Origin: an uncultured Sutterella sp.
GTDB lineage: Bacteria > Pseudomonadota > Gammaproteobacteria > Burkholderiales > Burkholderiaceae_F
Length of the DNA stretch: 30,000 nt
Assembly: GCA_937943605.1 (NCBI GenBank)
Contig: CALEAW010000089.1
Span: 4,592 to 34,591 of the forward strand
Reading direction: 5' to 3'
Each line of letters starts with the position of its first letter. Within the stretch, counting starts at the first letter, position 1. Below, piece after piece: positions 1 to 23,849 of the stretch. The notes beneath the pieces were generated by a model. The model was not told the DNA's origin. It made no database searches and saw nothing but the letters and a program-made list of their open reading frames with translations. A program made the position numbers and the translations under genes.

Positions 1-66
1 GCTGGGTGAAACCAAATGACAGTGCGACCTGCCGTGTGCATACGTGCTGGCATCCAACCGAAAGCA

Positions 67-1386
67 TCAGACATGATCAGCCCCCGTCAAAGAGAGATTC
101 TTCGTTTCAGGTGCAAAGAGCACAGAAGTTACGAGACCTACCATAGTGATGAGGAAAGCCCCCATCAATACGGTTTCGCTACCGTACTTCAAAAGAATCG
201 GATACATATAGAAGGTCGTCAAAATCGTGGCAATACGAGTAATAGACATCGCACACCCCACAGCTGTTGCACGAATATCCGTGCTAAAGAGTTCATTGGG
301 ATAAAGCCACTGCAACGTGCCAGGGCCACCAGACACCAAGGCGTAGGTCACGAGACCAATGAAGAGCACCACAGGGTTCGTGCTCCAGATCACCATTGCA
401 CCTAACGACAAGGTCATCAAAAGGTAGCTGCTGATGCAAACCACGCGACGACCGAATTCAGTGGTACACCACATGGCTGGGATACAACCCAAGAAAAACG
501 CAATACTGATCACCGTATTGGCTAATAAGGCTTCCTTCGGCGTGACGGCATCGAACCCCGACATGATTTGCGGGCCATACATATAGATCGCAAACATGGG
601 CACTGCCTGGCAAAGCCAAATAGTTGCGACAAAGACCAAGTTACGGAGGTTTTTACCCTGGAAAATGCCCAAGATATTGACTGACTCGACATCGCGATGA
701 ACATCTTTTTCAAGTTCAGAAAGCGGAATATCTAAGCCAAACTTTTTAAAGACTGCTCTCGCTTTAGCGGCTTTGCCGTGCATCAACAACCAACGCGGCG
801 ACTCTGGTACACGGATTCGACCCCACAAAACCAGCACGCAAGGAATTACAGCACTAGCTAACATCCAGCGCCAGCTGTTTTCGAGGTCATAGCAGAAATA
901 GCCTGCGAGGCTCGCACAAATGCCGCCGACAAACCAGATCGCAGCAATCGTACCCATCGCCCACGCGCGGCTCTTAATCGGCGAAAATTCAGCCACCATG
1001 CTCGTCGCGATTGGATAATCGGCGCCGATTAAGAGTCCCATGAAGAAGCGAGCTAATGCCAACTCGGTTGGCGTCGTGACCAAGGCGGACAGAATCGAAC
1101 AGGTCGCCAAGGCAAAAATATTGAAAATAAAGAGTTTTTTTCGACCAATACGGTCAGCGATGTAACCGAACAACGTTGTCCCGATAGCGAGTCCCACAAA
1201 GGTCGATGCGGTAATGACGCCTACCCAAAAGGTATCAAGCGAAAAATCCTTCATCAGATTTTCAAGCGCCACACCAATGATGATCAACACATAGGCATCG
1301 ATGAACGAACCGCCACCCGCGCACAACGTAATGGCTCGATGTCGTCCTGTGAACGGCAGATTGTCAAAATCTTTTAGAGTGTGCAT
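67..1386 (-). CDS. yaaU: MFS sugar-porter-family transporter, YaaU-like
   Basis: Based on the 465-aa track ORF. MFS/sugar-porter motifs are visible: DRIGRKKLF in the TM2-3 loop, PESPRWLL, and PETK near the C-terminus. From MHTLKDFDNLPF onward the protein looks colinear with E. coli YaaU as I recall it, and E. coli yaaU also lies directly downstream of fixX. I therefore prefer the ATG at 1386 over the track start at 1464. An AAGGA lies 10 nt upstream of the 1386 ATG. Confidence 0.75.
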   Translation of the reverse strand: MHTLKDFDNLPFTGRHRAITLCAGGGSFIDAYVLIIIGVALENLMKDFSLDTFWVGVITASTFVGLAIGTTLFGYIADRIGRKKLFIFNIFALATCSILSALVTTPTELALARFFMGLLIGADYPIATSMVAEFSPIKSRAWAMGTIAAIWFVGGICASLAGYFCYDLENSWRWMLASAVIPCVLVLWGRIRVPESPRWLLMHGKAAKARAVFKKFGLDIPLSELEKDVHRDVESVNILGIFQGKNLRNLVFVATIWLCQAVPMFAIYMYGPQIMSGFDAVTPKEALLANTVISIAFFLGCIPAMWCTTEFGRRVVCISSYLLMTLSLGAMVIWSTNPVVLFIGLVTYALVSGGPGTLQWLYPNELFSTDIRATAVGCAMSITRIATILTTFYMYPILLKYGSETVLMGAFLITMVGLVTSVLFAPETKNLSLTGADHV

Positions 1387-1412
1387 GGTCGGAGGGTCCT
1401 TGGTCGGAGGGT
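1387..1412 (-). repeat. Tandem direct 11-mer (ACCCTCCGACC-AAGG-ACCCTCCGACC on the coding strand) abutting the yaaU-like ATG
   Basis: The plus strand reads ggtcggagggt at 1387-1397 and again at 1402-1412, separated by cctt. The copies are identical. The spacer supplies the only purine-rich SD-like element. Confidence 0.8.
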
Positions 1413-1432
1413 GTCCTGTGTAGAGGTCATAG

Positions 1433-1462
1433 GCGACACCGCGCAGGACAACGCGGTGTCGC
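1433..1462 (-). promoter_or_regulatory. Intercistronic GC-rich stem-loop between fixX and the yaaU-like gene (11-bp perfect stem, 8-nt loop, no U-tract)
   Basis: gcgacaccgcg (1433-1443) and cgcggtgtcgc (1452-1462) are exact reverse complements. No T-run follows on the transcribed strand, so this is not a canonical intrinsic terminator. Confidence 0.6.
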
Positions 1463-1490
1463 ATCTTGAAGGGCTCAGAGCGTGAGGTGA

Positions 1491-1772
1491 TTAGCCCTGA
1501 CGGTATTCAATACCGAACGTGCCACGCGGCAGTTCCCACTTATCAAAGAGGGTCTTGCCACAGAGGAAGCGGCAGGTACCGCATTCCAAGCAACCAGCGT
1601 AGTCAAAACGGTAGGAGCCGTCTTCCTGGATGCTGTAAAGGCCAGCTGGACAAGCCTTCACTAATTTCATGAATTCCTTCTTATCGATGTTGGACTTCAA
1701 CACGATGTGAGCGTTTTCTTCGTCAACGTAGAACTTATTAACGCTCAGCTTTTCGTCAACATTCATGCTCAT
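1491..1772 (-). CDS. fixX: Ferredoxin-like protein FixX
   Basis: 93 aa, with CPAGLY...CLECGTC cysteine motifs. It looks colinear with E. coli FixX (about 95 aa) from memory. Its ATG overlaps the fixC TGA as ATGA at 1769-1772. Confidence 0.9.
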   Translation of the reverse strand: MSMNVDEKLSVNKFYVDEENAHIVLKSNIDKKEFMKLVKACPAGLYSIQEDGSYRFDYAGCLECGTCRFLCGKTLFDKWELPRGTFGIEYRQG

Positions 1773-3067
1773 ATTGCCTTACCTCCCTTATAGGCATCCT
1801 TCAAGACGTTCATGAAACCGACTTCCTTGACGCGAGCAGCGATCTTCTTACGGAGCGGTTCAGCGGGCTTGCTACCCAACACGAACATGTCATGCATCAT
1901 GCCGGCCATCATCTTGGGATAGGCGTTGAAGAGACGATCGTTTTCGAAGAAGCTCGGGAGATCACGATAGAGTTCAAGGTCGTGCATCACGAAGCTAGCC
2001 TTCAAGCGGGTTTCGTAGCTCTTCAAGGTATTGGCGCTGAAGTCACCCTTTTCGAGGGCTTCGAGCACGGCTTCACCAGCCTTTTCACCGGAGCAGATAG
2101 CGAGGTCAATACCGCGCACCGTGAAGCCCTGGTTGATACAGAAGCCAGCGGAGTCACCAACAACCATCACGCCATCAGCGTAGAGCTTCGGGCACATGTT
2201 GATACCGGCTTCCGGAACAACGTGGCCAGAGTATTCAACGAGTTCGCCGCCTTCCAAAAGAGGCTTAACCGTCGGATGGTTCTTGAAGTCTTCAAGCATT
2301 TCAGGCACGGTCTTGGAGCTTTCACCAACGTGAGCAAGGCCAGCAACGACGCCGACCGAAACCGTATCCTTGTTGGTATAGATGAAGCCGCCACCCATGA
2401 GGCCGTTAGAAGGCGTACCGGCAAAGAGCCAAGCCGTACCTTCGTCACCTTCGAGCTGGAAGCGAGACTTCAAAACATCTTCCGGCAAGCGGATGAGTTC
2501 CTTGGCACCGACAGCCACAGCGGTCGGATCGCAAGGACGGGTAGCCATGCCTAACTTTTCCGTCAGGATGGTGTTCACACCCTCAGCGATGATCACGCAC
2601 TTAGCATCGATGCGATCGCCGTCGGCTTCAATACCGCAAACCTTACCGTTTTCGTCACGGATCACTTCGTCAACGCGCACACCGTAAATGATCTGGGCGC
2701 CAACTTCTTCGGCCTTACCAGCGAGCCACTGGTCAAACGTGCCGCGAAGCACCGTGTAGGATTCTTCAACTTTGCTCTTGGGTTCATGCGTACGATAGTC
2801 CAGCGTCACGCCAGCTTCGTCCGTCAAGAAAGAAACCTTTTCCGTCGTCACACGACGTTCAACAGGGGCTTCATCAGCGAAACCCGGAATGATCCTTTCA
2901 AGACTATGGGCATACAAACGACCGCCCGTCATGTTCTTGGCGCCAGCATAGTTACCGCGTTCGACTACGAGAACGTTAGCACCAGCCTTGGCCATGACAT
3001 AGGCCGCCGTCGCACCAGCAGGGCCAGCACCGACGACAACGCAATCAAATGCATCTTCTTCAGACAT
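1769..3067 (-). CDS. fixC: FixC, ETF-quinone-oxidoreductase-like FAD flavoprotein
   Basis: 432 aa, with an N-terminal dinucleotide fold VVVGAGPAGATAA...VLVVERG. The size and position between fixB and fixX match E. coli FixC (about 428 aa). An AGGAAG SD lies upstream. Confidence 0.9.
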   Translation of the reverse strand: MSEEDAFDCVVVGAGPAGATAAYVMAKAGANVLVVERGNYAGAKNMTGGRLYAHSLERIIPGFADEAPVERRVTTEKVSFLTDEAGVTLDYRTHEPKSKVEESYTVLRGTFDQWLAGKAEEVGAQIIYGVRVDEVIRDENGKVCGIEADGDRIDAKCVIIAEGVNTILTEKLGMATRPCDPTAVAVGAKELIRLPEDVLKSRFQLEGDEGTAWLFAGTPSNGLMGGGFIYTNKDTVSVGVVAGLAHVGESSKTVPEMLEDFKNHPTVKPLLEGGELVEYSGHVVPEAGINMCPKLYADGVMVVGDSAGFCINQGFTVRGIDLAICSGEKAGEAVLEALEKGDFSANTLKSYETRLKASFVMHDLELYRDLPSFFENDRLFNAYPKMMAGMMHDMFVLGSKPAEPLRKKIAARVKEVGFMNVLKDAYKGGKAI

Positions 3068-3184
3068 GGAATTCTTCCTATGGAGATGGAGTCAGAGAGA
3101 AATTCTTTGCACCGAACCAGAGTGGCTCAGGCTCTCGGAGATAAACGCAGTCGTTAAATAAAAAAAGCGCATGTCTCCGAGAAC

Positions 3185-3232
3185 CCCGGGGCAAGGGGAC
3201 GGCAAACCCTCACATACCGTCCCCTTCCCGGG
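3185..3232 (-). promoter_or_regulatory. Large stem-loop in the 181-bp fixB-fixC gap (10 + 6 bp stem with a 2-nt bulge), with a T7 run about 18 nt downstream
   Basis: aaggggacgg (3193-3202) pairs with ccgtcccctt (3217-3226). cccggg (3185-3190) pairs with cccggg (3227-3232). On the transcribed strand a TTTTTTT run (plus-strand A7 at 3160-3166) follows after an 18-nt gap. Confidence 0.5.
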
Positions 3233-3248
3233 CACCCACCAACCTGGG

Positions 3249-4181
3249 TTACTTAAGGGCAGCCGTCAGCTTCGGGAGAACCTTCTGGAGGTCGCCCACG
3301 AGACCGAAGTCCGCGTACTTGAAGACCGGAGCCTTCTTGTCCTTATTGATGGCAAAGACCACATTGGCGCGGTTGACACCGACCATGTGCTGGATCTGAC
3401 CGGAAATACCAACAGCCATGTAGAAGTCAGGCTTCAACATAACGCCGGAAACACCGATGTAACGTTCACGTTCCATCCACTGTTCGCCTTCGGCGATCGG
3501 ACGGGAGCAGCCAACTTCAGCACCGATAGCAGCAGCGAAGTCGTCAGCGAGCTTGAGGTCTTCCTGCTTGGAGAAGCCACGGCCAACACCGATCACACGC
3601 TTGGCGCGGGAAAGGTCAACACCGCCAACAGCCTTAGCGATCACGCCGATACGACGGATACCGGAAACGGCCGGAGCAACGAAGTCGAGCGTCACGACTT
3701 CACCAGAACGGGAAGCGTCAGCCGGAAGAGCAGCAAAGAGACCGCCACCGATCGTCACGATAGCAACGTCGCTCACAACCTTTTCGTTGGAGACAGCGAG
3801 ACCACCGTAAACGAGGTGAGAGAGAGAATCGTCAGCGCCGAATTCGGAAACATCGTTCACGACACCAGCGTTGAGCATGGCACCGAGCTTGCCAGCGATA
3901 GCCTTGGCACGAACGGAAGCGGGCATGATGACGAGGGCGGGCTTAGCACCTTCGTTGATGGCCTTGGCCATCGTGTCGCAGTAGTCTTCGACGATCACGC
4001 CTTCAGCGGGGGTGCCGAGATCGAACACCTTGTCGGCGCCCATGGCAAAAGCGTTAGCGGCGCGGTCGGCACCGAAGACAAAGGTGTTGACGGCAGCGCC
4101 GAAGCTCTTACCAGCGGCGATGACGTCGGCCTGACGGTCGTTGAGATCACTAAACGTCCAAACGTTAACAAACTTGCTCAT
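3249..4181 (-). CDS. fixB: FixB, electron-transfer flavoprotein alpha subunit
   Basis: 310 aa, with the ETF-alpha C-terminal FAD signature PDFYMAVGISGQIQHMVG. The size matches E. coli FixB (about 313 aa). A GAGGATAGGAA SD region lies upstream. Confidence 0.9.
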   Translation of the reverse strand: MSKFVNVWTFSDLNDRQADVIAAGKSFGAAVNTFVFGADRAANAFAMGADKVFDLGTPAEGVIVEDYCDTMAKAINEGAKPALVIMPASVRAKAIAGKLGAMLNAGVVNDVSEFGADDSLSHLVYGGLAVSNEKVVSDVAIVTIGGGLFAALPADASRSGEVVTLDFVAPAVSGIRRIGVIAKAVGGVDLSRAKRVIGVGRGFSKQEDLKLADDFAAAIGAEVGCSRPIAEGEQWMERERYIGVSGVMLKPDFYMAVGISGQIQHMVGVNRANVVFAINKDKKAPVFKYADFGLVGDLQKVLPKLTAALK

Positions 4182-4205
4182 TTTTAATTCCTATCCTCAA
4201 TCAAA

Positions 4206-4982
4206 TTAGGCAGCGATGGCCTTGCGGATGTGTTCGATAAACTGTTCGATAGCGGCATCGTCATCACCTTCGATGACGACCTGCTGGCGGGCCTTCTGAG
4301 CCTGAGCGAGCACGCTGTTAACTTCGACGGAAGCGCCGTCGATCTGGGCGTTGACATCAGCGGCAGCGAGAACTTCAACCGGCTTCTTGGCAGCAGCCAA
4401 AATGGCGCGCATGGCCGGGATCTTCGGTTCGTTGATGTCGGCGGAAACGCTCACGACAGCCGGGAGCGTGATTTCAAGGGTTTCAACTTCGTTTTCAAGA
4501 CCGCGTTCAACCACGAGCTTGCCGCCTTCGCAGGAGACAATCTTGGAGACGCCGTTGATGGTCGGAACGCCGAGGTACTGACCGAGAAGGAGACCCGTCT
4601 GCTGTGCGTAGATGTCGCCGGAACCATTGCCGCAGAGAACGAGATCAAAGCCCTTGGCGCGCAAAGCAGCGGCGAGGACCTTGGCCGTTTCAGCCGGACG
4701 AAGGGCAGCGTAGGCATCATCCTGGAGAAGCAGGAGCGAATCAGGGCCGCGGGAGAGGACGTCCTTACGGGCCTTCGGGTTGGCCATAATGGCACCGCCA
4801 ACGCTCACAGCGACCACTTCGGTATCGGCCACGGCAGCCTTGAGCTCGCAAGCGGCTTCAATGGCGTTAAGATCGAACGGATTGACCTTGACCGTCGCCT
4901 TGGCTACATCGAGCGTGCGATCGGACTTGACCACAATGTCCTGTTCCTCATGGACGAACTTGAAAGCGGAATAGATTTTCAT
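4206..4982 (-). CDS. fixA: FixA, electron-transfer flavoprotein beta subunit
   Basis: 258 aa, with an ETF-beta-like sequence (MKIYSAFKFV...NPFDLNAIEAA...RKDVLSRGPD...LCGNGSGDIYAQQ). It looks colinear with E. coli FixA (about 256 aa) from memory. Confidence 0.9.
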   Translation of the reverse strand: MKIYSAFKFVHEEQDIVVKSDRTLDVAKATVKVNPFDLNAIEAACELKAAVADTEVVAVSVGGAIMANPKARKDVLSRGPDSLLLLQDDAYAALRPAETAKVLAAALRAKGFDLVLCGNGSGDIYAQQTGLLLGQYLGVPTINGVSKIVSCEGGKLVVERGLENEVETLEITLPAVVSVSADINEPKIPAMRAILAAAKKPVEVLAAADVNAQIDGASVEVNSVLAQAQKARQQVVIEGDDDAAIEQFIEHIRKAIAA

Positions 4983-5074
4983 TTTATTTCCCAGGTGGTG
5001 TTTAAGATGAATGCGAACTGCCCGGTGGGACGGGGACCGACCGTTACCAGACAGTCCGCGAGGGTCAAATTGAA

Positions 5075-5929
5075 TTACTTGTATTCAACGAGACCGAAGT
5101 TGAGGTAGAAGTGACCCGGCTTGTCGCAGTCTTCAACGTTGAAGTGGACGCAGTTGTCACCGAACTTCCAGATGCGCGTACGGATACGGCAGCCCGGGAA
5201 GAGCGGCTTCGTGATACGGGTCTTGAAGCGCGTCAGACGATCGGAGTCGCCGTCGAGAACGGCGTTGATGATGTGACGCACAGCGGTACCGGCCGTGGAA
5301 ACGGCGTGGAGGTTGGGCTTCGGATAGCCAAACTTCTGAGCGTATTCCCAGTCAATGTGCTGCGGATGGTAGTCGCCAGACAAGCGATAGATGCAAGCCT
5401 GGTTGAGCGGAATGACCTGTTCAACGACAAAGTCCGGTTCACGTTCCGGGATTTCGACGATGTCCTTCGGAGCCTTCGGGCCACCCCAGCCGCCGTCAAA
5501 AATGGCGCAGTCCCAGGATTCGTTCGTGAAGAGCAATTCGCCGGTTTCCTTGTCGCGCGTTTCGCCATAGTGCTGGGCGAGCGTGCCACGACCTTCACCG
5601 CGGTCAAAAAGACCCTTGAGGGTAACCATCGTTTCGAACGTGCCGTTGAGCTTGCTGAGCGGCTTCATGATGCGGAAGTCGAAGCCCCAGTGCAAAGAAC
5701 CACCCCATTCAAAGCCCCAGTCGATCGTCTTCGTGACTTCGGAAGCAACGATCGGGCAAGCGGCGATCATCGGGAGGATCTTCTGATCCTTTTCGTAGAC
5801 ATACTTCAGGTCGGTCTTACCGTCGTAGCCAGCACCGCAACCAAGCGCGAACAAGATGAGATCGCGGAAGTTGTAGTTGTAAATGAATGGGCCGTAGGTC
5901 TGGCCGACCATGTCGAGTTTCAGAGCCAT
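5075..5929 (-). CDS. MaoC-like / hydratase-2-type double hot-dog enoyl-CoA hydratase-dehydratase, occupying the caiD slot
   Basis: 284 aa, the typical length of a fused N+C hot-dog hydratase-2 domain. The C-terminal half carries YRLSGDYHPQHIDWEYA. This matches the hydratase-2 motif [YF]-x(1,2)-[LVIG]-[STGC]-G-D-x-N-P-[LIV]-H-x5-[AS], with the Asp and the +5 His kept but N->H and L->Q. A strong AAGGAG SD lies 7 nt upstream of the ATG. Confidence 0.8.
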   Translation of the reverse strand: MALKLDMVGQTYGPFIYNYNFRDLILFALGCGAGYDGKTDLKYVYEKDQKILPMIAACPIVASEVTKTIDWGFEWGGSLHWGFDFRIMKPLSKLNGTFETMVTLKGLFDRGEGRGTLAQHYGETRDKETGELLFTNESWDCAIFDGGWGGPKAPKDIVEIPEREPDFVVEQVIPLNQACIYRLSGDYHPQHIDWEYAQKFGYPKPNLHAVSTAGTAVRHIINAVLDGDSDRLTRFKTRITKPLFPGCRIRTRIWKFGDNCVHFNVEDCDKPGHFYLNFGLVEYK

Positions 5930-5959
5930 TTTTCACTCCTTGGTTAAGTAAAACACCTA

Positions 5960-7558
5960 TTAATTCAGGCGCTCTGTGCCGTCATGGGGTTCTCGGGAGA
6001 GAACTTCCTTGACGATTTTTCCTGTGCAGGTACGCACAAATTCCTCACGGAATTCAATGAATACCGGCCACTTGAATTCAGCCAGGTTGTTGCGGCAGTG
6101 TGCGAGCACTTCTGCCTTGGTCATCGTGACGCCCTCTTTGAGACGCACAAAGGCCTTCACTTCCTGGTCACGGATCGGGTCGGGCACGCCAATGACGGCC
6201 GCTTCCGCGATCTTCGGATGTTCGGTGAGCACGTTTTCAATTTCAGTGCTCGAAATGTTTTCCCCGCTGCGCTTGATCATGTGGATCGAGCGATCAACAA
6301 ACCAGAAGAAACCGTCTTCGTCGATGCGACCCTTATCCTTGGTCAGCATCCAACCGTCACCGACGAGCGTTTCGCGCGTGGCTTTTTCGTTGTTGATGTA
6401 GCCCTTAAAGAGCGTGCGGCCAGGGATGCCGCGGATCATGAAGGTACCGATTTCACCGGGCTTCACGTCGTTACCGTTTTCGTCAACCAGACGGGCTTCG
6501 TAGCCGAAGTACGGGCGACCCACGCTGGGGAATCGACGATCGTCTTCTGGCAAAAGCGTTACGTTGCCAACGAGCGTTTCTGTCATGCCGTACGAGTTGA
6601 TCACGTCAACACCAAAGCGAGCCTTGAATGCGCGATATTCGCTCACAGCCATCGGGAGGCCGTAGAGGATTTCGCGTAAGACGTGATCCTTTTCCCAGGC
6701 ATGCACTGGCTGGCGCATCACGGTGCGAAGAATCATCGGCACAGCCTGCGTGATCGTCGCGCGGTAGAGGCAAATCTGACGCCAGAAACGATGGGCGCTA
6801 AAGCGCTGAATCATGACGAGCGTGCCAGCTACCGTAAAGATCGGCATCGCAGCATTACACTGAAAGTCCACATGGAAGTTAGGCATCGTCGTCAAAAGAC
6901 GATCGCTAGCGTTCATGCGAGCCTGGCAAGACGTAAAGAAACCAGCCCAAACTAAGTTGGCATGCGTGATCATTACGCCCTTCGGGGCAGACGTCGTTCC
7001 AGACGTAAAGAGAATTTCAGCGAGGTCTTCAGGATCAATCGGACGCACTTCAGAAAGAACCGGAGAAGCTTCCTTCGTCAATGCTTCGAGATCGATCGCA
7101 CCCTTGCAGTCTTCTGGCGAACCTTCGCCATTGGGAGCCACGACGAACATGTTGCGGAACTTGTCTTCGCGGTTTTGTTCGTAGCCTTCCCAGGACTTCC
7201 AGAAGCGAACGTCACAAATGCAGTGAACCGCTTCAGAGGTCTTGACGAGGTGGTCAAATTCACGGGCGATATAGCCGTTATTGACACTCACCATGACCGC
7301 ACCGATCTTCGAAAGAGCGAACCAAACCTTGAGGAACCAAGGCGTGTTGGTCATCTGAAGAATGACCTTTTCACCCTTCTGAATGCCGTGCGCAATCAGC
7401 ACATTAGCCACACGGTTAATGTCTTGATTGAGCTCTCCGTATGTGGCAGTCTCGGTATTTCCGTCTTCATACTCAGCCATAAGGCAAACCTTATCTGCAT
7501 GAGCTGCGGCCAACTCATCCCAGAAGCGACGGAGATTTCTGTTTCCTAAGATGTCCAT
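5960..7558 (-). CDS. caiC: Crotonobetaine/carnitine-CoA ligase-like AMP-forming acyl-CoA synthetase
   Basis: 532 aa, with ANL-superfamily motifs LFTSGTTSAPKG, SYGMTET and C-terminal TGKIVK. The N-terminus MDILGNRNLRRFWDEL resembles E. coli CaiC (MDIIGGQHLRQMWDDL, recalled). It sits after caiB. Confidence 0.85.
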   Translation of the reverse strand: MDILGNRNLRRFWDELAAAHADKVCLMAEYEDGNTETATYGELNQDINRVANVLIAHGIQKGEKVILQMTNTPWFLKVWFALSKIGAVMVSVNNGYIAREFDHLVKTSEAVHCICDVRFWKSWEGYEQNREDKFRNMFVVAPNGEGSPEDCKGAIDLEALTKEASPVLSEVRPIDPEDLAEILFTSGTTSAPKGVMITHANLVWAGFFTSCQARMNASDRLLTTMPNFHVDFQCNAAMPIFTVAGTLVMIQRFSAHRFWRQICLYRATITQAVPMILRTVMRQPVHAWEKDHVLREILYGLPMAVSEYRAFKARFGVDVINSYGMTETLVGNVTLLPEDDRRFPSVGRPYFGYEARLVDENGNDVKPGEIGTFMIRGIPGRTLFKGYINNEKATRETLVGDGWMLTKDKGRIDEDGFFWFVDRSIHMIKRSGENISSTEIENVLTEHPKIAEAAVIGVPDPIRDQEVKAFVRLKEGVTMTKAEVLAHCRNNLAEFKWPVFIEFREEFVRTCTGKIVKEVLSREPHDGTERLN

Positions 7559-7587
7559 TTTCAGTGTCAGTCAATAGAGGGTTATCG

Positions 7588-7625
7588 GAGAGGTGGGGCA
7601 GAAAGGAGCGTTCTGCCCCACTCTC
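7588..7625 (-). promoter_or_regulatory. Intercistronic stem-loop between caiB and caiC (about 15 bp with one bulge, 7-nt loop)
   Basis: gagaggtggggcagaa (7588-7603) pairs with ttctgccccactctc (7611-7625). No U-tract follows on the transcribed strand. Confidence 0.55.
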
Positions 7626-7660
7626 TTTGGAGAACGGATCTAGGAGACCCTAGTACTCGA

Positions 7661-8878
7661 TTACTTGGAGGTCACAACGACGCCCTTTTCTTCGAGGGCA
7701 GCGATTGCGGCATCGTCATAGCCGAGTTCGGTGAGCACGGCACGGGTGTCTTCACCACGAGCCGGCATACCACGCCAGATGCGACCCGGACGGTTCTTGA
7801 AGCGCGGCATCACGTTCGGACCCTTGACGGTGCGACCAGCGGAACCTTCCCAGGTCACGATGTCTTCACGGGCGATGTAATGCGGATGCTTTTCAAGTTC
7901 CTTAACGGTCATCATGCGGCCGCCAGCGATCTTGAGGCGAGCCATCACAGCTTCGGCGTCAGCCAACGTCATCTTGGCGAAGTAGGTGTCGAGAGCAGCT
8001 TCGATTTCAGCGCCACGCGGCATGGAAAGGAGAAGCAACTGGCAGCCTTCAGGGCAGCTTTCGGTGCCGAGAAGGTCGGCATAACCGAGTTCGGTCATCA
8101 TGCCAGCGACCTGCTTAACACCCACGAGTTCGACGCACATATAGCCGTCGGTGCACTTGTAGATACCGCAACCAACGCAGAGAGGATCCTTACCCTTCGT
8201 GGAGCGCGGATAGACCTTGCCTTCGTTGAAGTAATCCATCATGTAATATTGACCGACTCGCAAAAGCGCCTCGTACATAGAGATATCGATGGATTCGCCC
8301 TGGCCCGTCTGCTTGGCGCGATAGAGAGCAGCCAAAGCGGAGGAAAGGACCGTGAAGCCAGCGAAGTAGTCACCAGCGTACGGGAAGGCTGGGATCGGCT
8401 GATCGACTTCACCGTTCTGAACGAGGTAGCCAGAGAAGGCCTGAGCAATCAAGTCATAGGACGGCAGATTGACGTAGGCAGGATCGCCCCAGTGGCCATA
8501 GCCAGACAAGTGAGCGATAACGAGCTGCGGGTTGGCACCCCAGAGGAGATCGTCGGTGATGCCGTGGCGAGCCCAGGACGGACCCTTGCTCGATTCGATG
8601 AGGATGTCGGTCGTCTTCATGAGCTTGAGGAAGGCTTCCTTACCTTCTTCCGTGAAGACGTTGATGGTCATCGTATGGAAGTTACGGCGAGCAAGTTCGC
8701 AGTAGTTACGCTGCACACGGATCGTGTCAGGATAGGCCGTGTTTTCGAGCCAAATAACTTCGGCACCCCATTCAGCCATCATATGGGCTGGGAAAGGACC
8801 AGCGATTTCCATAGCGGAAACCACGACACGAACCCCATGGAGCGGGCCAAAATCCGGCGTTTGGATCTGGTTGGACAT
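7661..8878 (-). CDS. caiB: L-carnitine CoA-transferase (family III CoA-transferase)
   Basis: 405 aa, the same length as E. coli CaiB. It looks colinear by eye: GLRVV..IEIAGPF, EWGAEVIW.EN, and PAFPYAGDYFAG containing the family III catalytic Asp. An AAGGAA SD lies upstream. Confidence 0.9.
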   Translation of the reverse strand: MSNQIQTPDFGPLHGVRVVVSAMEIAGPFPAHMMAEWGAEVIWLENTAYPDTIRVQRNYCELARRNFHTMTINVFTEEGKEAFLKLMKTTDILIESSKGPSWARHGITDDLLWGANPQLVIAHLSGYGHWGDPAYVNLPSYDLIAQAFSGYLVQNGEVDQPIPAFPYAGDYFAGFTVLSSALAALYRAKQTGQGESIDISMYEALLRVGQYYMMDYFNEGKVYPRSTKGKDPLCVGCGIYKCTDGYMCVELVGVKQVAGMMTELGYADLLGTESCPEGCQLLLLSMPRGAEIEAALDTYFAKMTLADAEAVMARLKIAGGRMMTVKELEKHPHYIAREDIVTWEGSAGRTVKGPNVMPRFKNRPGRIWRGMPARGEDTRAVLTELGYDDAAIAALEEKGVVVTSK

Positions 8879-8908
8879 TTTCGAAATTCCTTTGCTGTGT
8901 TGAGTGTT

Positions 8909-8935
8909 GTCGGATCCCGGATCTCGGGATCCGAC
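8909..8935 (-). promoter_or_regulatory. Intercistronic perfect stem-loop between caiA and caiB (11-bp stem, 5-nt loop)
   Basis: gtcggatcccg (8909-8919) and cgggatccgac (8925-8935) are exact reverse complements. No U-tract follows on the transcribed strand. Confidence 0.6.
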
Positions 8936-8973
8936 GGTTTGGTCACGAGAGTTCAGATGAACTCAGGGGCGAA

Positions 8974-10116
8974 TTAACGGTACTTCTTGAGAACCGCACG
9001 GCCGAGCGTGAGGATCTGCATTTCGTCCGTACCGCCAGAGACGCGGTCAACACGGAGGTCGCGCCAGAAGCGGGAAACACGGTGGTCGCCAGCGACGCCC
9101 ATGCCGCCGAGAACCTGCATAGCCTGGTCAACAACGCTGAAGGCGGCGTTGGCGCAGTACCACTTACACATGGCGGCGTCGCCAGTGTTCATGACGCCAG
9201 TCTGGTCAGCCTTCCAAGCAGCCATGTAGATCATGTTGCGCATGTTGGCGAGCTTCGTGGCCATGTCAGCGAACTTGAGCTGGGTGAGCTGGTAGCGGAA
9301 GATCTTTTCGCCGAACTGTTCACGCTGGTTGGCGTACTTGGCAGCGTCTTCGAAGGCGCAGTAAGCAACACCGTAGTTCGTGCAAGCGACGAGGAAGCGT
9401 TCAACGTCGAATTCGTCCTTCACGCGCTGGAAGCCCATGCCTTCCTTACCGAAGAAATCCTTTTCTTCGAGTTCAACGTCTTCGAAGTAGATTTCGCAGC
9501 AGGAGTCCATCTTGAGACCGAGCTTCGGAAGCTTTTCCTTCTTGATGCCCGGCTTGGACATGTCAACGAAGAATTCGGAGAAGACAGGCTTATCCGGAGA
9601 AGCAGCGTCACGAGCCATCACGACGAGGTACGGGCAGTAGTAGGAGCTCGTGATGAAGGCCTTGTGGCCGTTCAAGTAGATCTTGCCGTCACGACGGGTG
9701 TAGGTCGTGGTCAAGCTACCAACGTCAGAACCAGCGCCCGGTTCCGTGATGGCGGAGTTCCACATCTGCTGACCCGTGCCGAGCAAGGACGTGATCTTTT
9801 CGATCTGTTCCGGCGTGCCGTTGTGGAGCACGGAGGAAACACCAGGCAACTGGTAGAGGACGTACGTCGGGGCGCCGTGGCGACCGAGTTCTTCCCAAAT
9901 GGCAGCGAGCGTCACGAGGTTGGATTCGAGGCCACCGTACTGTTCCGGAAGGAGGAGACGGTCGATGCCGAGGTCAGCGAGAGCCTTAACCCAACGAACC
10001 GGGTAGGTGCTCGTCTTGTCGCATTCGTCGAAATAGGTTTCCCAGTTTTCGCTTTCCATCAGATCACGGACGCCGGCAACCAGCAATTCCTGTTCGTCAT
10101 TGAGCTGAAAATCCAT
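8974..10116 (-). CDS. caiA: Crotonobetainyl-CoA reductase (acyl-CoA dehydrogenase family)
   Basis: 380 aa, the same length as E. coli CaiA. It looks near-colinear from [11 protein letters not shown] to [12 protein letters not shown] (E. coli, recalled: MDFNLNDEQEL ... [12 protein letters not shown]). Confidence 0.9.
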
Positions 10117-10162
10117 TTTTCTTTCCTTTCAAAAATGAGTCAGGGAGAAGTGTTTGAGGGAA

Positions 10163-11683
10163 TTACTTCCACTCGGTATTTGCACGGGCTTCCTTGAAGA
10201 AGGAGACCGCGACGGCAATGTTCACGAAGAAGAGGAGGCAGCCGCCAACCACGATGGCCGTCTGGAGAGGCTTAATGCCGCCAAGAGCCATCAGAGCGAG
10301 AGCGATAGCACCCACGAGGAGCGACCACACCACACGAACCCAAACCGGCGGTTCGTCGTAGCCACCAACGTCCTTACAGGTGGACATGGCGAGCGTGTAA
10401 GAGCAACCGTTAACCAACGTCAAGGTGGCGAGGAAGCAGAGGACGAAGAAGACAACGATCGTCGCCGTGCTCATCGGAAGGGCAGCCCACGTTTCGATAA
10501 TGGCGCGAGCAACACCGTGCTGTTCGATGATGGCCGGAATGTCAAGAGCCTTCGTCATCAAGAGATGGATCGTGTTGGAACCGAGGATCGGCCAAATCAA
10601 CCAGGTCGTAGCCGTCACGCCGCCAACCACAGCGACAGAGACTTCACGCACCGTACGACCGCGAGAGATGCGGGCGAAGAAGAGGCACGTCTGGATCGTG
10701 AAGATCACCCACCAGGCCCAGTAGAAGACCGTCCAGCTCTGCGGGAAGCCCGTACCGCGGATAGAGTCCGTGTTGAACATCATGCGGCCGAGGTTGTTCA
10801 AGAGAACGCCAACGGAGTCGGTGAAGTAGTTGATCGTGAAGCTGGTAGCACCAACAACGAGAACCCAAGCGAGGATGAGAATCGTCAAGTAGGAACGAAG
10901 GTCAGAGGCGAGCTTCACACCCTTTTCGAGACCGAAGGTCACGCAAATGGCGTTAACGATAATCCAAGCGAGCACGATGCCAGCGTCGAGGCCGAGGGTA
11001 TGCGGGATACCGAAGAGCCACTGCATGCATTCCGTAACCAACGGCGTGGAAAGGCCGAGACTGGTACTCATGGCGAGCAGCAAAGCGACGAGGTAGAGGT
11101 TGTCGATCAACGTGCCGAGGAAGCCCTTAGAAGCCTTCTTACCGATCACGGCTTCAACCGTGCCGGACGGACGAACAACGTCAATCTTCTTCACATAGAG
11201 GAAGTAACCGAAAGCAACCGTAAAGAAGCCGAAGGTAGACCAGGACACCGGACCCCAGTGGAACATGGCGTAAGCCAAACTGGTTTCGATGGCTTCAGGA
11301 GACATCGGAGCGTAGCCAAACGGAGGCTGCGTAGCGTAGTAGTAGACTTCGATGGCACCCCAGAAGAGCACAGCAGCGGAAGTCGAAGACGCGAAGAGCA
11401 AGAAGATCCAGCTAGGCGTGCTGAATTCAGGCGCTTCTTCACCGAGCTTGCGGTTAGCCCACGGCCCAAAGATGAGCCAGAGCCAAAGGATGAGTGTCAC
11501 AACGATGTACCACTCGAAAACCCAACCAAAGGTATGGGTGACGTAGTTAAACGCAGCACTAATCACTGCGTTAGCGGCTTCAAGGTCCTGCATGACCGCC
11601 GCAATCAAGGCCACGGAAATGAGCAAAGGTGGGAAAAACACCTTTGGATCAATCGTGATCTTCTTTTTTGCTTGTTGAACCAT
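10163..11683 (-). CDS. caiT: BCCT-family L-carnitine/gamma-butyrobetaine antiporter
   Basis: 506 aa, with the BCCT signature WTVFYWAWW. Long blocks appear identical to E. coli CaiT as recalled ([40 protein letters not shown]). A GGAAGGAAG SD lies upstream. Confidence 0.9.
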
Positions 11684-11738
11684 GTCTTCCTTCCATCAAA
11701 AGACGTTTGAAAATGTTTTGCCCGCCTTCTCTTCATCG

Positions 11739-11757
11739 GGCATATGCATCATATGCC
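11739..11757. promoter_or_regulatory. Perfect palindrome GGCATATG-CAT-CATATGCC, 56-74 nt upstream of the caiT ATG
   Basis: The 8-bp arms at 11739-11746 and 11750-11757 are exact reverse complements with a 3-nt spacer. It could be an operator or a 5'-UTR hairpin. Confidence 0.5.
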
Positions 11758-11797
11758 TTTTGATACGAATCGGTCTAATCCGAAAACCCCACTCCTA

Positions 11798-11817
11798 ATC
11801 TTGGAAAATTACGAAAC
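11798..11817. repeat. Motif copy A (ATCTTGGAAAATTACGAAAC) of the reiterated intergenic motif
   Basis: It matches copy B at about 17 of 20 positions. It lies 115 nt upstream of the caiT ATG. Related half-sites are ATCTTGTA at 11828-11835 and ATCTTAAAAA at 11871-11880. Confidence 0.5.
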
Positions 11818-12062
11818 TAGATGGGTTATCTTGTATTTTTCCAACTTTACAGTTTGATTAAACTCAAACAAATCTTAAAAAGTCGTCAGACAGGGTTTTC
11901 GAAAGACTTCTATTTTTACGAGACGATGGTGTACTACTTCTCACCACAAAGTTGTTAAAACCCCATTTGACGCCAACTGTCTATTACACACACTTAAACT
12001 ATGTATTAAACTTTGTTTCAGTCGTTTTTGGTTATTTGTCTAAGAAATACACCCTAATACGG

Positions 12063-12087
12063 ATCTTGTAAAATTACAAAATCACTT
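12063..12087. repeat. Motif copy B (ATCTTGTAAAATTACAAAATCACTT)
   Basis: It contains the inverted repeat TTGTA-N4-TACAA and matches copy C at 22 of 25 positions by eye. Confidence 0.6.
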
Positions 12088-12343
12088 ATCCTTTATGATT
12101 AAAAGCACGCTAGTCTATAGTCTAGTTAGTATTGGTTTTATAGACGACACTGACCTACATACTTCCTGGATCAAACTCACCAGCTCGAGACATAAAAAAT
12201 CTAACTAACACAGTATGGTCTGACTGTTATTTATTGCAAATTCTTTCAGACAATCATGTTTATAGTACCAGACCAGTTTAGTTAATTATTTATAACTAGA
12301 CAATTCATATCTAAAAGCCAAAAAGACCAAAAACCAGGGTTGA

Positions 12344-12368
12344 ATCTTGTAAAACAACAAGATCACTT
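12344..12368. repeat. Motif copy C (ATCTTGTAAAACAACAAGATCACTT)
   Basis: It contains the perfect 7-bp inverted repeat ATCTTGT-N6-ACAAGAT and shares the flanking ATCACTT with copy B. Confidence 0.6.
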
Positions 12369-12652
12369 TTCAAAACATGCGTATCTTTACGTAGGTCAAA
12401 CATCCGTGGGCGCACCAGTCACCCCTTTTCTCGCCGCCCTATTCTCGGTGTCGTTCGATTTTGGTCGTGCCTTTTACGGAGTTTTTGAGGTTTAACGAAC
12501 GCTTTGCTACTCAAAAGCCGTCCTTGTCTCTATATAGAAACCGTGACCGATCTTTACTTTTCGTGTCGACCTGTAGCGCTCTCCTTTTGAAGCATGATTG
12601 ACAAAGTCACGCGTTTTATAATGAAGTCTTCTTTGATTTGGAGGCTTTGCCC

Positions 12653-23846: not shown

Positions 23847-23849
23847 CCT

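What the first reader, a model, noticed from the sequence alone, without database searches (positions are those of the whole stretch)
67..11683. Unidirectional caiTABC-(hot-dog hydratase)-fixABCX-yaaU super-operon lacking caiD, caiE and caiF
In E. coli the anaerobic carnitine genes form two divergent operons, caiTABCDE and fixABCX, with caiF nearby and yaaU just past fixX. Here ten genes run head-to-tail on one strand. Gaps are short, fixC/fixX overlap as ATGA, and I see no convincing terminator until after the MFS gene. CaiT, CaiA and CaiB look about 60-70% identical to the E. coli proteins by eye, so the substrate class is probably the same. The crotonase CaiD, the hexapeptide protein CaiE and the activator CaiF are all absent from the window. 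The electron-input module FixABCX is physically fused to the reductase module. That fusion is the genetic arrangement expected if Fix feeds CaiA. This looks like a distinct architectural variant of the carnitine-to-gamma-butyrobetaine respiration pathway, a pathway relevant to gut TMA/TMAO precursors.
Basis: partly seen in the sequence, partly recalled or inferred. Interest (0 to 1): 0.7.

Follow-up and report, generated by a model that had tools for sequence, protein, structure and literature searches.

The report
Carnitine-reduction operon with MaoC dehydratase
A gut-type Sutterellaceae bacterium carries the known carnitine-to-gamma-butyrobetaine pathway as one long one-directional operon in which a hot-dog-fold (MaoC) dehydratase replaces the usual CaiD enzyme, a variant that occurs in at least 80 species but has hardly been described.

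Summary
Ten genes lie head to tail on the minus strand: caiT-caiA-caiB-caiC-maoC-fixA-fixB-fixC-fixX-yaaU-like MFS. CaiT, CaiA, CaiB and CaiC pass NCBIfam equivalog cut-offs. No caiD, caiE or caiF lies in the window or in the 10 kb beyond its start.

Three corrections:
- The operon does not end at the MFS gene. A hydrolase gene overlaps its stop by 8 nt, a second hydrolase follows, and only then comes a strong hairpin, giving 12 genes.
- The fixB/fixC gap holds a very stable hairpin (z = -4.9).
- The layout is not unique. The MaoC protein has 57-94% identical homologues in 80 species representatives of at least five phyla. All sit in cai/fix clusters, 69 of them fully one-directional.

CaiD accompanies MaoC only in Shewanella and Ferrimonas. 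The MaoC clade keeps the catalytic Asp and His of hydratase 2 but has an invariant altered motif (GDxHPQH...DW). One paper (Scoary2, Propionibacterium freudenreichii) noted such a cluster in passing. No biochemistry exists.

Best reading: a working carnitine/acylcarnitine reduction operon in which MaoC does CaiD's job. The open point is stereochemistry, because canonical hydratase 2 chemistry would give D-carnitinyl-CoA, not L-carnitinyl-CoA.

This is a new variant of a known pathway, of moderate interest.

The parts
10163..11683 (-). caiT, BCCT L-carnitine/gamma-butyrobetaine antiporter (506 aa)
   Evidence: NCBIfam equivalog NF002887 scores 783.6 bits against a cut-off of 541. Pfam BCCT. 62% identical to E. 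coli CaiT.
8974..10116 (-). caiA, crotonobetainyl-CoA reductase (acyl-CoA dehydrogenase fold, 380 aa)
   Evidence: NCBIfam NF002885 scores 705.1 bits against a cut-off of 540. 75% identical to E. coli CaiA.
7661..8878 (-). caiB, family III CoA-transferase (405 aa)
   Evidence: NCBIfam NF002914 scores 602.8 bits against a cut-off of 413. 57% identical to E. coli CaiB.
5960..7558 (-). caiC, betaine-CoA ligase (532 aa)
   Evidence: NCBIfam NF005947 scores 675.8 bits against a cut-off of 651. 43% identical to E. coli CaiC.
5075..5929 (-). cai-associated MaoC-type double hot-dog dehydratase (284 aa), the proposed carnitinyl-CoA dehydratase / crotonobetainyl-CoA hydratase
   Evidence: Pfam MFE-2_hydrat-2_N plus MaoC_dehydratas; no NCBIfam family. 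Best PDB sequence match is 1s9c, E = 1.9e-35. AlphaFold model pLDDT 88.7, TM 0.85-0.87 to 1s9c and 3khp. Catalytic D186 and H191 are kept; H188, Q190 and W194 are invariant in the clade. Homologues sit in cai clusters in 80 of 80 species loci.
4206..4982 (-). fixA, electron-transfer flavoprotein beta-type subunit (258 aa)
   Evidence: NCBIfam NF002888 scores 337.9 bits against a cut-off of 219. Pfam ETF.
3249..4181 (-). fixB, electron-transfer flavoprotein alpha-type subunit (310 aa)
   Evidence: Best NCBIfam match is NF002889 (FixB) at 331 bits, below the cut-off of 549. Pfam ETF plus ETF_alpha. 46% identical to E. coli FixB.
3068..3248 (-). fixB/fixC intergenic element: GC-rich 18-bp hairpin, with a U7 run 18 nt later; a possible attenuator or mRNA-stability element
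   Evidence: MFE -79.8 kcal/mol against shuffles of -59.7 +/- 4.1, z = -4.9. L008 and L009 have strong hairpins of unrelated sequence in the same gap. The simple terminator scan did not flag it.
1769..3067 (-). fixC, ETF-quinone-oxidoreductase-like flavoprotein (432 aa)
   Evidence: NCBIfam NF007450 scores 584.3 bits against a cut-off of 466; the FixC model NF007542 scores 583.6, below its cut-off of 610. Pfam ETFQO_UQ-bd.
1491..1772 (-). fixX, ferredoxin-like protein (93 aa); its ATG overlaps the fixC stop as ATGA
   Evidence: NCBIfam NF011993 scores 137.7 bits, below the cut-off of 166. Overlap read directly from the sequence. 64% identical to E. coli FixX.
67..1464 (-). YaaU-like MFS transporter (465 aa)
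   Evidence: Pfam Sugar_tr and MFS_1. 46% identical to E. coli YaaU. Follows maoC directly in 48 of the 80 loci.
1..74 (-). 5' end of abh1, an Abhydrolase_2 paralogue that lacks the nucleophile Ser. Its ATG (74-72) overlaps the MFS stop (69-67). The gene runs off the window. abh2 and a hairpin terminator follow in L001.
   Evidence: Sequence read. 24 of 24 residues match abh1 of L001. Gene map of L001. Pfam. Terminator at L001 12902-12929. Active-site alignment.
11748..11777 (-). candidate sigma-70-type promoter 65-95 nt upstream of the caiT ATG (weak consensus match only)
   Evidence: TAGACC-18-TATGAT, 9 of 12 positions. Such matches are no more frequent here than in shuffled sequence, so this is only a candidate.
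12063..12363 (.). two copies of a 20-bp palindrome ATCTTGT-N6-ACAAGAT (12063-12082 and 12344-12363) inside the 954-bp AT-rich region upstream of caiT; a candidate operator
   Evidence: Repeat family D1. 6 matches at up to 3 mismatches against 1.05 expected, with 0 of 100 shuffles reaching 6. A related palindrome lies about 150 nt upstream of caiT in L008.

Best explanation
This is a 12-gene operon of about 13 kb from an uncultured Sutterellaceae bacterium. It carries out CoA-dependent anaerobic reduction of L-carnitine or crotonobetaine to gamma-butyrobetaine, using the betaine as an electron sink.

Proposed steps:
1. CaiT exchanges carnitine for gamma-butyrobetaine across the membrane.
2. CaiC primes the CoA-ester pool.
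3. CaiB passes CoA from product to substrate.
4. The MaoC-type double hot-dog enzyme, not a crotonase CaiD, dehydrates carnitinyl-CoA to crotonobetainyl-CoA.
5. CaiA reduces crotonobetainyl-CoA with electrons delivered by FixAB (ETF) and FixCX.
6. The YaaU-like MFS transporter and the downstream esterase abh2 probably widen the substrate range to O-acylcarnitines by releasing free carnitine.

Shown here: gene identities, order, operon boundaries, fold and catalytic residues of MaoC, and the obligate cai context of its family. Inferred: the reaction catalysed by MaoC, its stereochemistry, the esterase substrate, and co-transcription.
For: - CaiT, CaiA, CaiB and CaiC exceed NCBIfam equivalog cut-offs. 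FixA passes its own model's cut-off, FixC passes only a related subfamily model, and FixB and FixX have Fix models as best match below cut-off. Identity to the E. coli proteins is 43-75%.
- Gaps are short, fixC/fixX overlap as ATGA and MFS/abh1 overlap by 8 nt. Terminator-like hits are all inside genes and at chance level, 16 against 15.3 expected. A 12-bp-stem hairpin follows abh2.
- MaoC has the hydratase 2 fold with catalytic Asp186 and His191 conserved in 81 of 81 clade members. The motif definition comes from PMC3823801.
- All 80 species loci found with MaoC carry other cai/fix genes. caiC sits directly upstream in 63 of them. 67 have no CaiD within 10 kb on either side.
- A more distant Coriobacteriales homologue (50% identity) lies in the same kind of cluster.
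- MaoC is as conserved as CaiA (57-72% across phyla) and has 93 invariant residues.
- In P. freudenreichii, strains with an intact caiABC-hydratase-MFS-fixABCX cluster deplete acylcarnitines and raise carnitine and putative gamma-butyrobetaine. A strain with split fixABC accumulates carnitine. The authors suggested the hydratase fills the CaiD gap.
- Carboxylesterase genes of two unrelated alpha/beta-hydrolase families are attached to these clusters. Abhydrolase_3 is present in 53 of 80 loci, and Abhydrolase_2 in the window's lineage.
Against: - No biochemical data exist for any member of this MaoC clade.
- Canonical hydratase 2 enzymes make (3R)-hydroxyacyl-CoA. Because CIP priorities swap at C3, that geometry corresponds to D-carnitinyl-CoA, not L. 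This is inference from established stereochemistry.
- The clade has changed the motif Asn to His, Leu to Gln and Pro to Trp. The catalytic Gly is Ala in 68 of 81 members, so the chemistry may differ.
- Thirteen Shewanella and Ferrimonas species keep CaiD (84-89% identical to E. coli) and MaoC side by side, which argues against simple redundancy.
- A crotonase elsewhere in the 2.8 Mb genome cannot be excluded.
- A stable hairpin between fixB and fixC could split transcription.
Confidence: 0.62

Rival explanations
1. MaoC keeps the family's usual facial selectivity. It interconverts crotonobetainyl-CoA and D-carnitinyl-CoA. Together with an L-specific crotonase (CaiD in Shewanella, an unlinked enzyme elsewhere) it forms a two-hydratase carnitinyl-CoA epimerase. 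This would resemble the peroxisomal 3-hydroxyacyl-CoA epimerase activity produced by hydratase 1 plus hydratase 2. In clusters without CaiD it would allow only crotonobetaine or D-carnitine to enter.
For: - Hydratase 2 fold and catalytic dyad.
- CaiD and MaoC are kept adjacent in 13 of 13 Shewanella and Ferrimonas species.
- E. coli extracts show a 'carnitine racemase' activity linked to CaiD whose basis was never fully settled (review PMC2131755).
- The CIP analysis is inference.
Against: - D-carnitine is not a known natural metabolite, so selection across five phyla would be hard to explain.
- 67 of 80 clusters have no CaiD nearby.
- The P. freudenreichii phenotype involves natural L-acylcarnitines from milk.
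- The altered motif suggests a remodelled active site.
Confidence: 0.18
2. The cluster acts on a related but different substrate, such as another beta-hydroxy or enoyl quaternary amine or a non-betaine acyl-CoA. The 'Cai' names are then over-transferred, and MaoC marks the different substrate.
For: - CaiC is only 43% identical to E. coli CaiC and barely clears its cut-off (675.8 against 651).
- FixB, FixC and FixX fall below the Fix-specific cut-offs.
- The MaoC active-site motif is unique.
- Extra transporters (MFS, SSF) vary between lineages.
Against: - CaiT, CaiA and CaiB score far above their equivalog cut-offs.
- CaiA is 75% identical to the E. coli enzyme.
- The Shewanella clusters are E. 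coli-like throughout (CaiB 81%, CaiD 84-89%) and still include maoC.
- P. freudenreichii metabolomics points to carnitines.
Confidence: 0.1
3. The ten (or twelve) genes are not one transcription unit. The hairpin in the fixB/fixC gap terminates or strongly attenuates transcription, so caiTABC-maoC-fixAB and fixCX-MFS-abh1-abh2 are expressed separately.
For: - The gap is 181 nt and folds with z = -4.9, with a U7 run downstream.
- A strong hairpin is conserved in position in L008 and L009, and the L009 one is followed directly by a T-rich run.
- In other taxa an SSF transporter gene is inserted at this same junction.
Against: - In the window the U-run lies 18 nt after the stem, not next to it, and the scan did not call it a terminator.
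- No promoter-like site was found in the gap.
- FixCX would be needed in step with FixAB.
Confidence: 0.25

Closest known systems
E. coli / Proteus caiTABCDE + fixABCX + caiF carnitine pathway
   Same: Orthologous CaiT, CaiA, CaiB, CaiC, FixA, FixB, FixC, FixX and YaaU (43-75% identity). The order caiT-A-B-C and fixA-B-C-X-yaaU is the same. The presumed chemistry through CoA esters is the same (review PMC2131755).
   Different: It is one unidirectional operon, not two divergent ones. There is no crotonase CaiD, no CaiE and no CaiF. A MaoC-type dehydratase lies between caiC and fixA. Two alpha/beta-hydrolase genes are coupled to the MFS gene. A different candidate regulator (p298) and palindromic sites are present.
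Propionibacterium freudenreichii caiABC-(enoyl-CoA hydratase)-MFS-fixABCX cluster (Scoary2; PMC11007987)
   Same: It lacks caiD and has a hydratase plus an MFS transporter between the cai and fix genes. Alpha/beta-hydrolase and MFS genes in it are linked to acylcarnitine depletion. It is the only published note that such a hydratase 'might fill the gap'. Propionibacteriaceae loci L056, L068 and L076 show the same family of MaoC.
   Different: The Actinomycetota version lacks CaiT, orders the genes differently, and uses an Abhydrolase_3 esterase with a second MFS transporter upstream of caiA. The paper does not name the hydratase family. That it is the MaoC type is inferred here from related loci.
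Hydratase 2 / MaoC (R)-specific enoyl-CoA hydratases (MFE-2 hydratase domain 1s9c, M. tuberculosis 3khp, PhaJ)
   Same: Double hot-dog fold (TM 0.85-0.87). The catalytic Asp and His sit in the hydratase 2 motif.
   Different: Identity is only 24-31%. The motif reads GDxHPQHxDW, whereas the canonical form is GDxNxLHIDP. The catalytic Gly is mostly Ala. The clade has invariant aromatic and acidic residues (D70, W81, F83, D84, E137, W139, D140, D145, W194) and an obligate cai-cluster context.
gbu/bbu cluster of Emergencia timonensis (gamma-butyrobetaine to trimethylamine)
   Same: It is also a CoA-dependent gut pathway for carnitine-derived betaines that uses acyl-CoA-dehydrogenase-like and CoA-transferase enzymes (titles and abstracts listed; details from my own knowledge).
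   Different: It acts one step downstream, on gamma-butyrobetaine, and releases trimethylamine. Nothing in the window resembles that step. The window encodes the upstream step that produces gamma-butyrobetaine.

Membership tests
cai/fix anaerobic carnitine reduction system (E. coli type) | CaiT BCCT carnitine/gamma-butyrobetaine antiporter | tested here: met
   NF002887 equivalog scores 783.6 bits against a cut-off of 541.
cai/fix anaerobic carnitine reduction system (E. coli type) | CaiA reductase, CaiB CoA-transferase and CaiC ligase | tested here: met
   Scores against cut-offs: 705.1/540, 602.8/413 and 675.8/651 bits. Identity to E. coli: 75%, 57% and 43%.
cai/fix anaerobic carnitine reduction system (E. 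coli type) | Crotonase-fold CaiD crotonobetainyl-CoA hydratase | tested here: not met
   E. coli CaiD gives no tblastn hit (E < 1e-6, at least 50% coverage) in the window or in L001-L006, which cover 10 kb past the window start. The rest of the genome was not searched.
cai/fix anaerobic carnitine reduction system (E. coli type) | CaiE and the activator CaiF | tested here: not met
   No hits in the window or its flank. CaiF is absent from all 80 related loci. p298 is not similar to CaiF.
cai/fix anaerobic carnitine reduction system (E. coli type) | FixABCX electron-transfer module | tested here: met
   All four are present. FixA is above its cut-off. FixC is above the NF007450 cut-off but below that of the FixC model NF007542. 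FixB and FixX have Fix models as best match but score below cut-off. Identity to E. coli is 46-64%.
cai/fix anaerobic carnitine reduction system (E. coli type) | Two divergent operons sharing one control region | tested here: not met
   All genes lie on one strand, with fix downstream of cai. E. coli layout for comparison.
cai/fix anaerobic carnitine reduction system (E. coli type) | Conversion of L-carnitine or crotonobetaine to gamma-butyrobetaine | not testable with these tools
   This needs expression and metabolite assays. The only indirect support is the P. freudenreichii metabolomics.
Hydratase 2 / MaoC (R)-specific enoyl-CoA hydratase | Double hot-dog fold | tested here: met
   Model pLDDT 88.7. 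Foldseek TM 0.85 to 1s9c and 0.87 to 3khp. Pfam MFE-2_hydrat-2_N plus MaoC_dehydratas.
Hydratase 2 / MaoC (R)-specific enoyl-CoA hydratase | Hydratase 2 motif Y-R-L-S-G-D-x-N-x-L-H-I-D-P with catalytic Asp and His | tested here: inconclusive
   Asp186 and His191 are present and invariant. Asn, Leu and Pro are replaced by invariant His188, Gln190 and Trp194. Motif taken from PMC3823801.
Hydratase 2 / MaoC (R)-specific enoyl-CoA hydratase | Catalytic Gly of the 'LHG' segment (Gly216 in the human hydratase 2 structure numbering) | tested here: not met
   The window protein has Ala209. The position is Ala in 68 and Gly in 13 of 81 clade members. A G217A mutant loses activity in the P. capsici enzyme.
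Hydratase 2 / MaoC (R)-specific enoyl-CoA hydratase | (R)-specific hydration of trans-2-enoyl-CoA | not testable with these tools
   This needs an enzyme assay with chiral product analysis.

The most novel reading that the evidence does not exclude
The cai-linked MaoC clade is a new enzyme family, a hot-dog-fold carnitinyl-CoA dehydratase with a remodelled active site (GDxHPQH...DW, and Ala where the catalytic Gly normally sits). Either it has reversed the facial selectivity of its superfamily so that it handles L-carnitinyl-CoA, or it is D-specific and pairs with CaiD as a two-hydratase carnitine epimerase. In either case a large and unrecognised set of gut, oral and marine bacteria would produce gamma-butyrobetaine: Sutterellaceae, Actinomyces and Trueperella, Coriobacteriales, Bacillota, Desulfovibrionales. 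Surveys that require an intact caiTABCDE would miss them.
Probability: 0.3. Interest if true: 0.7.

Novelty: new variant of a known kind. Interest (0 to 1): 0.5.

Why it matters
Gamma-butyrobetaine made from dietary carnitine is the obligate intermediate of the anaerobic gut route to trimethylamine and TMAO. That step is currently credited almost entirely to Enterobacteriaceae with caiTABCDE (abstracts; PMC10694575).

The gBMGC database builds its models on the six genes caiT to caiE. It would therefore probably not count clusters that lack caiD and caiE (inference).

The MaoC-type cluster shows that the pathway exists without CaiD, CaiE or CaiF in at least 80 species of at least five phyla. 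These include common gut and oral lineages.

The enzyme also poses a clean, testable stereochemical question for the hot-dog-fold superfamily. The attached esterases suggest direct use of acylcarnitines, which rise in the gut in inflammatory bowel disease. The conserved position of YaaU-like transporters gives a first functional lead for E. coli yaaU.

Tried and rejected
- NCBIfam has no model for the MaoC protein.
- Cluster look-up returned no organism or product names for the window's proteins. The taxon label therefore rests on three MAG titles with 82-94% identical Cai proteins.
- A literature search for MaoC + carnitine + caiD gave one irrelevant paper. The Psychrobacter plasmid and Shewanella MTB7 papers mention cai genes but not the hydratase.
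- Rfam gathering-threshold scan of the whole window found no RNA family.
- Consensus terminator and promoter scans were at chance level and not informative on their own.
- p298 as a CaiF analogue: no similarity to CaiF and no match to any solved structure. Only a sub-threshold Crp-like HTH hit (E = 0.006). It is kept only as a side observation.
- The palindrome upstream of caiT is enriched in the window and has a relative in L008, but not in L009. L001 does not extend upstream of caiT, and its hits are at chance. The evidence is weak.
- Plasmid search found only one partial cluster, on a Curtobacterium plasmid, so there is no evidence that plasmids carry the intact system.
- A whole-genome search for caiD in the 2.8 Mb source contig was not possible with these tools.

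Full report
**Observation**

The minus strand of window 67-11683 carries ten consecutive ORFs. NCBIfam and Pfam identify them as follows:

| Gene | Coordinates | Score / cut-off (bits) |
|---|---|---|
| caiT | 10163-11683 | 783.6 / 541 |
| caiA | 8974-10116 | 705.1 / 540 |
| caiB | 7661-8878 | 602.8 / 413 |
| caiC | 5960-7558 | 675.8 / 651 |
| MaoC-type (MFE-2_hydrat-2_N + MaoC_dehydratas) | 5075-5929 | no NCBIfam family |
| fixA | 4206-4982 | 337.9 / 219 |
| fixB | 3249-4181 | 331 / 549 |
| fixC | 1769-3067 | 583.6 / 610 (FixC model); 584.3 / 466 (NF007450) |
| fixX | 1491-1772 | 137.7 / 166 |
| YaaU-like MFS | 67-1464 | Pfam Sugar_tr, MFS_1 |

I fetched the E. coli K-12 cai/fix region for comparison. 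Identities are CaiT 62%, CaiA 75%, CaiB 57%, CaiC 43%, FixA 54%, FixB 46%, FixC 56%, FixX 64% and YaaU 46%. The fixC/fixX ATGA overlap is real. E. coli CaiD, CaiE and CaiF find nothing in the window. The rest of the window holds ordinary genes: AIM24-family, Usp, small heat-shock protein, MFS sugar-efflux, an ABC-2 exporter with a HlyD adaptor, recD and recB.

**Source and true extent**

The MFS protein is found with an identical sequence on contigs in 31 blocks of the assembly collection (24 contigs read). One of them is a 2.8 Mb contig, which I hold as locus L001. The closest species representatives are titled Sutterellaceae or Sutterella MAGs and have 82-94% identical CaiT, CaiA, CaiB and MaoC proteins.

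L001 shows what lies past the window start:
- An ATG at window 74-72 overlaps the MFS stop at 69-67 by 8 nt and opens an Abhydrolase_2 gene, abh1.
- A second Abhydrolase_2 gene, abh2, follows.
- Then comes a hairpin with a 12-bp stem.
- Then comes a convergent 298-aa gene, p298.
- Further on lie dprA, lysE, a flavin reductase, thioredoxin and ribonucleotide reductase genes.

The transcription unit therefore probably has 12 genes. No caiD, caiE or caiF lies within 10 kb on that side.

Terminator-like matches inside the cluster are all within genes and at chance level, 16 against 15.3 expected. The longest gap is fixB/fixC, 181 nt. It folds into a very stable GC-rich hairpin (-79.8 kcal/mol, z = -4.9) with a U7 run 18 nt downstream. 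The two related Sutterellaceae loci have strong hairpins of unrelated sequence in the same gap. Desulfobaculum, Maridesulfovibrio and Endozoicomonas have an SSF transporter gene inserted at that same junction. So fixAB|fixCX is a module boundary, and some attenuation or mRNA processing there is possible.

**The MaoC protein**

- It aligns over residues 7-266 with the hydratase 2 domain of human MFE-2 (1s9c, E = 1.9e-35) and with M. tuberculosis 3khp.
- An AlphaFold model built from 32 homologues is confident (pLDDT 88.7, pTM 0.88). It superposes on 1s9c and 3khp at TM 0.85-0.87.
- The published hydratase 2 motif is Y-R-L-S-G-D-x-N-x-L-H-I-D-P, with a catalytic Asp and His plus a Gly (PMC3823801).
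- The window protein reads YRLSGD(186)YH(188)PQ(190)H(191)IDW(194).
- In 81 cai-linked homologues Asp186 and His191 are invariant. The motif Asn, Leu and Pro are invariably His, Gln and Trp. The catalytic Gly position is Ala in 68 and Gly in 13.
- Ninety-three of 284 positions are invariant. They include many aromatic and acidic residues (D70, W81, F83, D84, E137, W139, D140, D145). I infer, but did not show, that these form a pocket for the trimethylammonium group.
- Databases call the protein 'MaoC/PaaZ C-terminal domain-containing protein', 'acyl dehydratase', or mislabel it as a bile-acid enoyl-CoA hydratase.

**Distribution**

A scan of one genome per GTDB species with this protein returned 115 confirmed relatives, of which the best 80 were kept as loci. 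I mapped the window's ten proteins and E. coli CaiD, CaiE and CaiF onto them. Every locus carries other cai or fix genes.

| Group | Loci | Typical order |
|---|---|---|
| Sutterellaceae | 3 | as in the window |
| Desulfobacterota | 4 | caiTABC-maoC-fixABCX |
| Endozoicomonas | 4 | caiTABC-maoC-fixABCX-caiE |
| Shewanella / Ferrimonas | 13 | caiTABC-caiD-maoC-caiE, with fixAB divergent |
| Bacillota | 14 | caiT-A-B-fixABCX-caiC-maoC-MFS |
| Actinomycetota (incl. Actinomyces, Trueperella pyogenes, Arcanobacterium, Propionibacteriaceae) | 41 | caiA-B-C-maoC-MFS-fix, no BCCT transporter |
| Dormiibacterota | 1 | fixCX-caiA-B-C-maoC-fixAB |

- caiC directly precedes maoC in 63 loci.
- All mapped genes share one strand in 69 loci.
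- CaiD appears only in the 13 Shewanella/Ferrimonas loci, CaiE in 17, and CaiF in none.
- A Coriobacteriales homologue at 50% identity sits in the same kind of cluster.
- One partial cluster lies on a Curtobacterium plasmid.

**Accessory genes**

- An Abhydrolase_3 carboxylesterase is part of 53 of the 80 loci. It follows caiE in Shewanella. In Actinomycetota it pairs with a second MFS transporter upstream of caiA. In Sutterella MAG023 it follows the YaaU-like MFS.
- The window's lineage has two Abhydrolase_2 genes in that role. abh2 has an intact GFSQGG / Asp / His set. abh1 has Gly at the nucleophile position and lacks the Asp and His.
- YaaU-like MFS genes follow maoC in 48 loci. They are 50-60% identical to E. 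coli YaaU in Bacillota and Actinomycetota.

**Literature**

The established pathway is as follows (review PMC2131755):
- CaiT is the antiporter, CaiC the ligase and CaiB the CoA-transferase.
- CaiD is the enoyl-CoA hydratase and CaiA the reductase.
- CaiE has no known function, and Fix transfers electrons to crotonobetaine.

The only mention of a CaiD-less cluster that I found is the Scoary2 paper (bioRxiv 10.1101/2023.04.19.537353; Genome Biology PMC11007987). It reports the following for Propionibacterium freudenreichii:
- The strains lack caiD and caiT.
- An adjacent MFS plus alpha/beta-hydrolase pair associates with loss of octanoyl- and decanoylcarnitine and a rise in carnitine and putative gamma-butyrobetaine.
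- A strain with split fixABC accumulates carnitine.

The gBMGC database defines gamma-butyrobetaine producers by the six genes caiT to caiE.

**Mechanism**

I commit to a carnitine/acylcarnitine reduction operon in which MaoC replaces CaiD. Carnitine enters by CaiT, and perhaps acylcarnitine enters by the MFS transporter and is de-esterified by abh2. CaiC and CaiB make carnitinyl-CoA. MaoC dehydrates it. CaiA reduces crotonobetainyl-CoA with electrons from FixABCX. CaiB releases gamma-butyrobetaine, which CaiT exports.

The series Endozoicomonas (maoC + caiE), Shewanella (caiD + maoC + caiE), Enterobacteria (caiD + caiE) fits stepwise non-orthologous displacement. This is inference.

The main difficulty is stereochemistry. 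L-carnitine is (R). Because the CH2N+ group outranks CH2COSCoA at C3, it has the spatial arrangement of (S)-3-hydroxyacyl-CoA, which is the crotonase product. A canonical hydratase 2 would give the D form. So either the remodelled active site binds the enoyl group differently, or the enzyme is D-specific and works with a crotonase as an epimerase. Retention of both enzymes in Shewanella keeps this rival alive. A third rival, a different substrate altogether, is unlikely given the CaiT, CaiA and CaiB scores.

**Regulation (weak leads only)**

- No CaiF is present.
- The 954-bp AT-rich region upstream of caiT holds two copies of ATCTTGT-N6-ACAAGAT. This gives 6 matches at up to 3 mismatches against 1.05 expected. 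L008 has a related site about 150 nt upstream of its caiT.
- p298 is 63-65% conserved and sits next to the cai cluster in three Sutterellaceae species, even though its position differs between them. It has only a sub-threshold Crp-like HTH hit, no similarity to CaiF and no relative of known structure.

**Verdict**

The finding is real and mostly well interpreted, but three points need correcting. The unit is longer than described. The architecture is widespread, not singular. The equivalence of MaoC and CaiD is unproven and stereochemically non-trivial.

It is a new variant of a known pathway. It has been noted once in the literature and never characterised.

Interest is moderate (0.5). It is higher if the enzyme turns out to be stereochemically unusual, or if these taxa prove to be major gamma-butyrobetaine producers.

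Noticed in passing
window 3068-3248 (minus strand); L008 and L009 fixB/fixC gaps: The fixB/fixC gap holds a very stable GC-rich hairpin (z = -4.9), with a U7 run 18 nt later. Related species have hairpins of different sequence in the same gap. Other taxa have an SSF transporter gene inserted there. It may be an attenuator or an mRNA-stability element.
   Followed up: partly
window 11684-12637, especially 12063-12082 and 12344-12363: The intergenic region upstream of caiT is unusually long (954 bp) and AT-rich (about 42% GC). It holds two good and two weak copies of the palindrome ATCTTGT-N6-ACAAGAT, spaced about 265-280 nt apart. No Rfam family matches there.
   Followed up: partly
L001 12950-13846 (just beyond the window start, opposite strand); L008 14409-15281; L009 2220-3098: A 298-aa protein of unknown family, with only a sub-threshold Crp-like HTH hit, stays next to the cai cluster in three Sutterellaceae species although its position differs. 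It is a candidate regulator standing in for CaiF.
   Followed up: partly
window 1-74 and L001 11391-12110 (abh1); L001 12186-12878 (abh2): abh1 has Gly at the nucleophile Ser position (GLGQGG) and lacks the Asp and His of the triad, also in its L008 orthologue. It looks like a conserved dead paralogue. abh2 has an intact GFSQGG / Asp / His set.
   Followed up: partly
L001 1-1310 and 5517-6353: In the 2.8 Mb ENA assembly the gene caller picked the antisense ORFs (518 aa and 278 aa, no Pfam hit) and so missed caiT and maoC. The same long antisense ORFs exist in the window (10154-11710 +, 5111-5947 +). Such miscalls could hide this cluster in annotations.
   Followed up: no
window 67-1464; E. coli yaaU in L087 12308-13639: YaaU-type MFS transporters are conserved members of cai clusters across phyla, next to maoC in 48 of 80 loci and 50-60% identical to E. 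coli YaaU in Bacillota and Actinomycetota. This suggests that the uncharacterised E. coli yaaU belongs to carnitine metabolism.
   Followed up: partly
L012 and L016 (Endozoicomonas), upstream of the main maoC: A second, divergent maoC paralogue (46-47% identity) lies in tandem between caiC and the main maoC gene.
   Followed up: no
L059 12288-12965 (Trueperella pyogenes); L090 10040-10672 (Curtobacterium plasmid): An MBL-fold metallo-hydrolase gene follows the MFS gene (T. pyogenes) or maoC (plasmid). It could be a thioesterase-type accessory of the Actinomycetota clusters.
   Followed up: no
window 12638-29983: The rest of the window looks ordinary: AIM24-family protein, tandem-Usp protein, small heat-shock protein, sugar-efflux MFS, a HlyD-adaptor/ABC-2 exporter operon, and recD and recB. 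The 821-aa ORF at 27518-29983 was not scanned and is presumably recC.
   Followed up: partly
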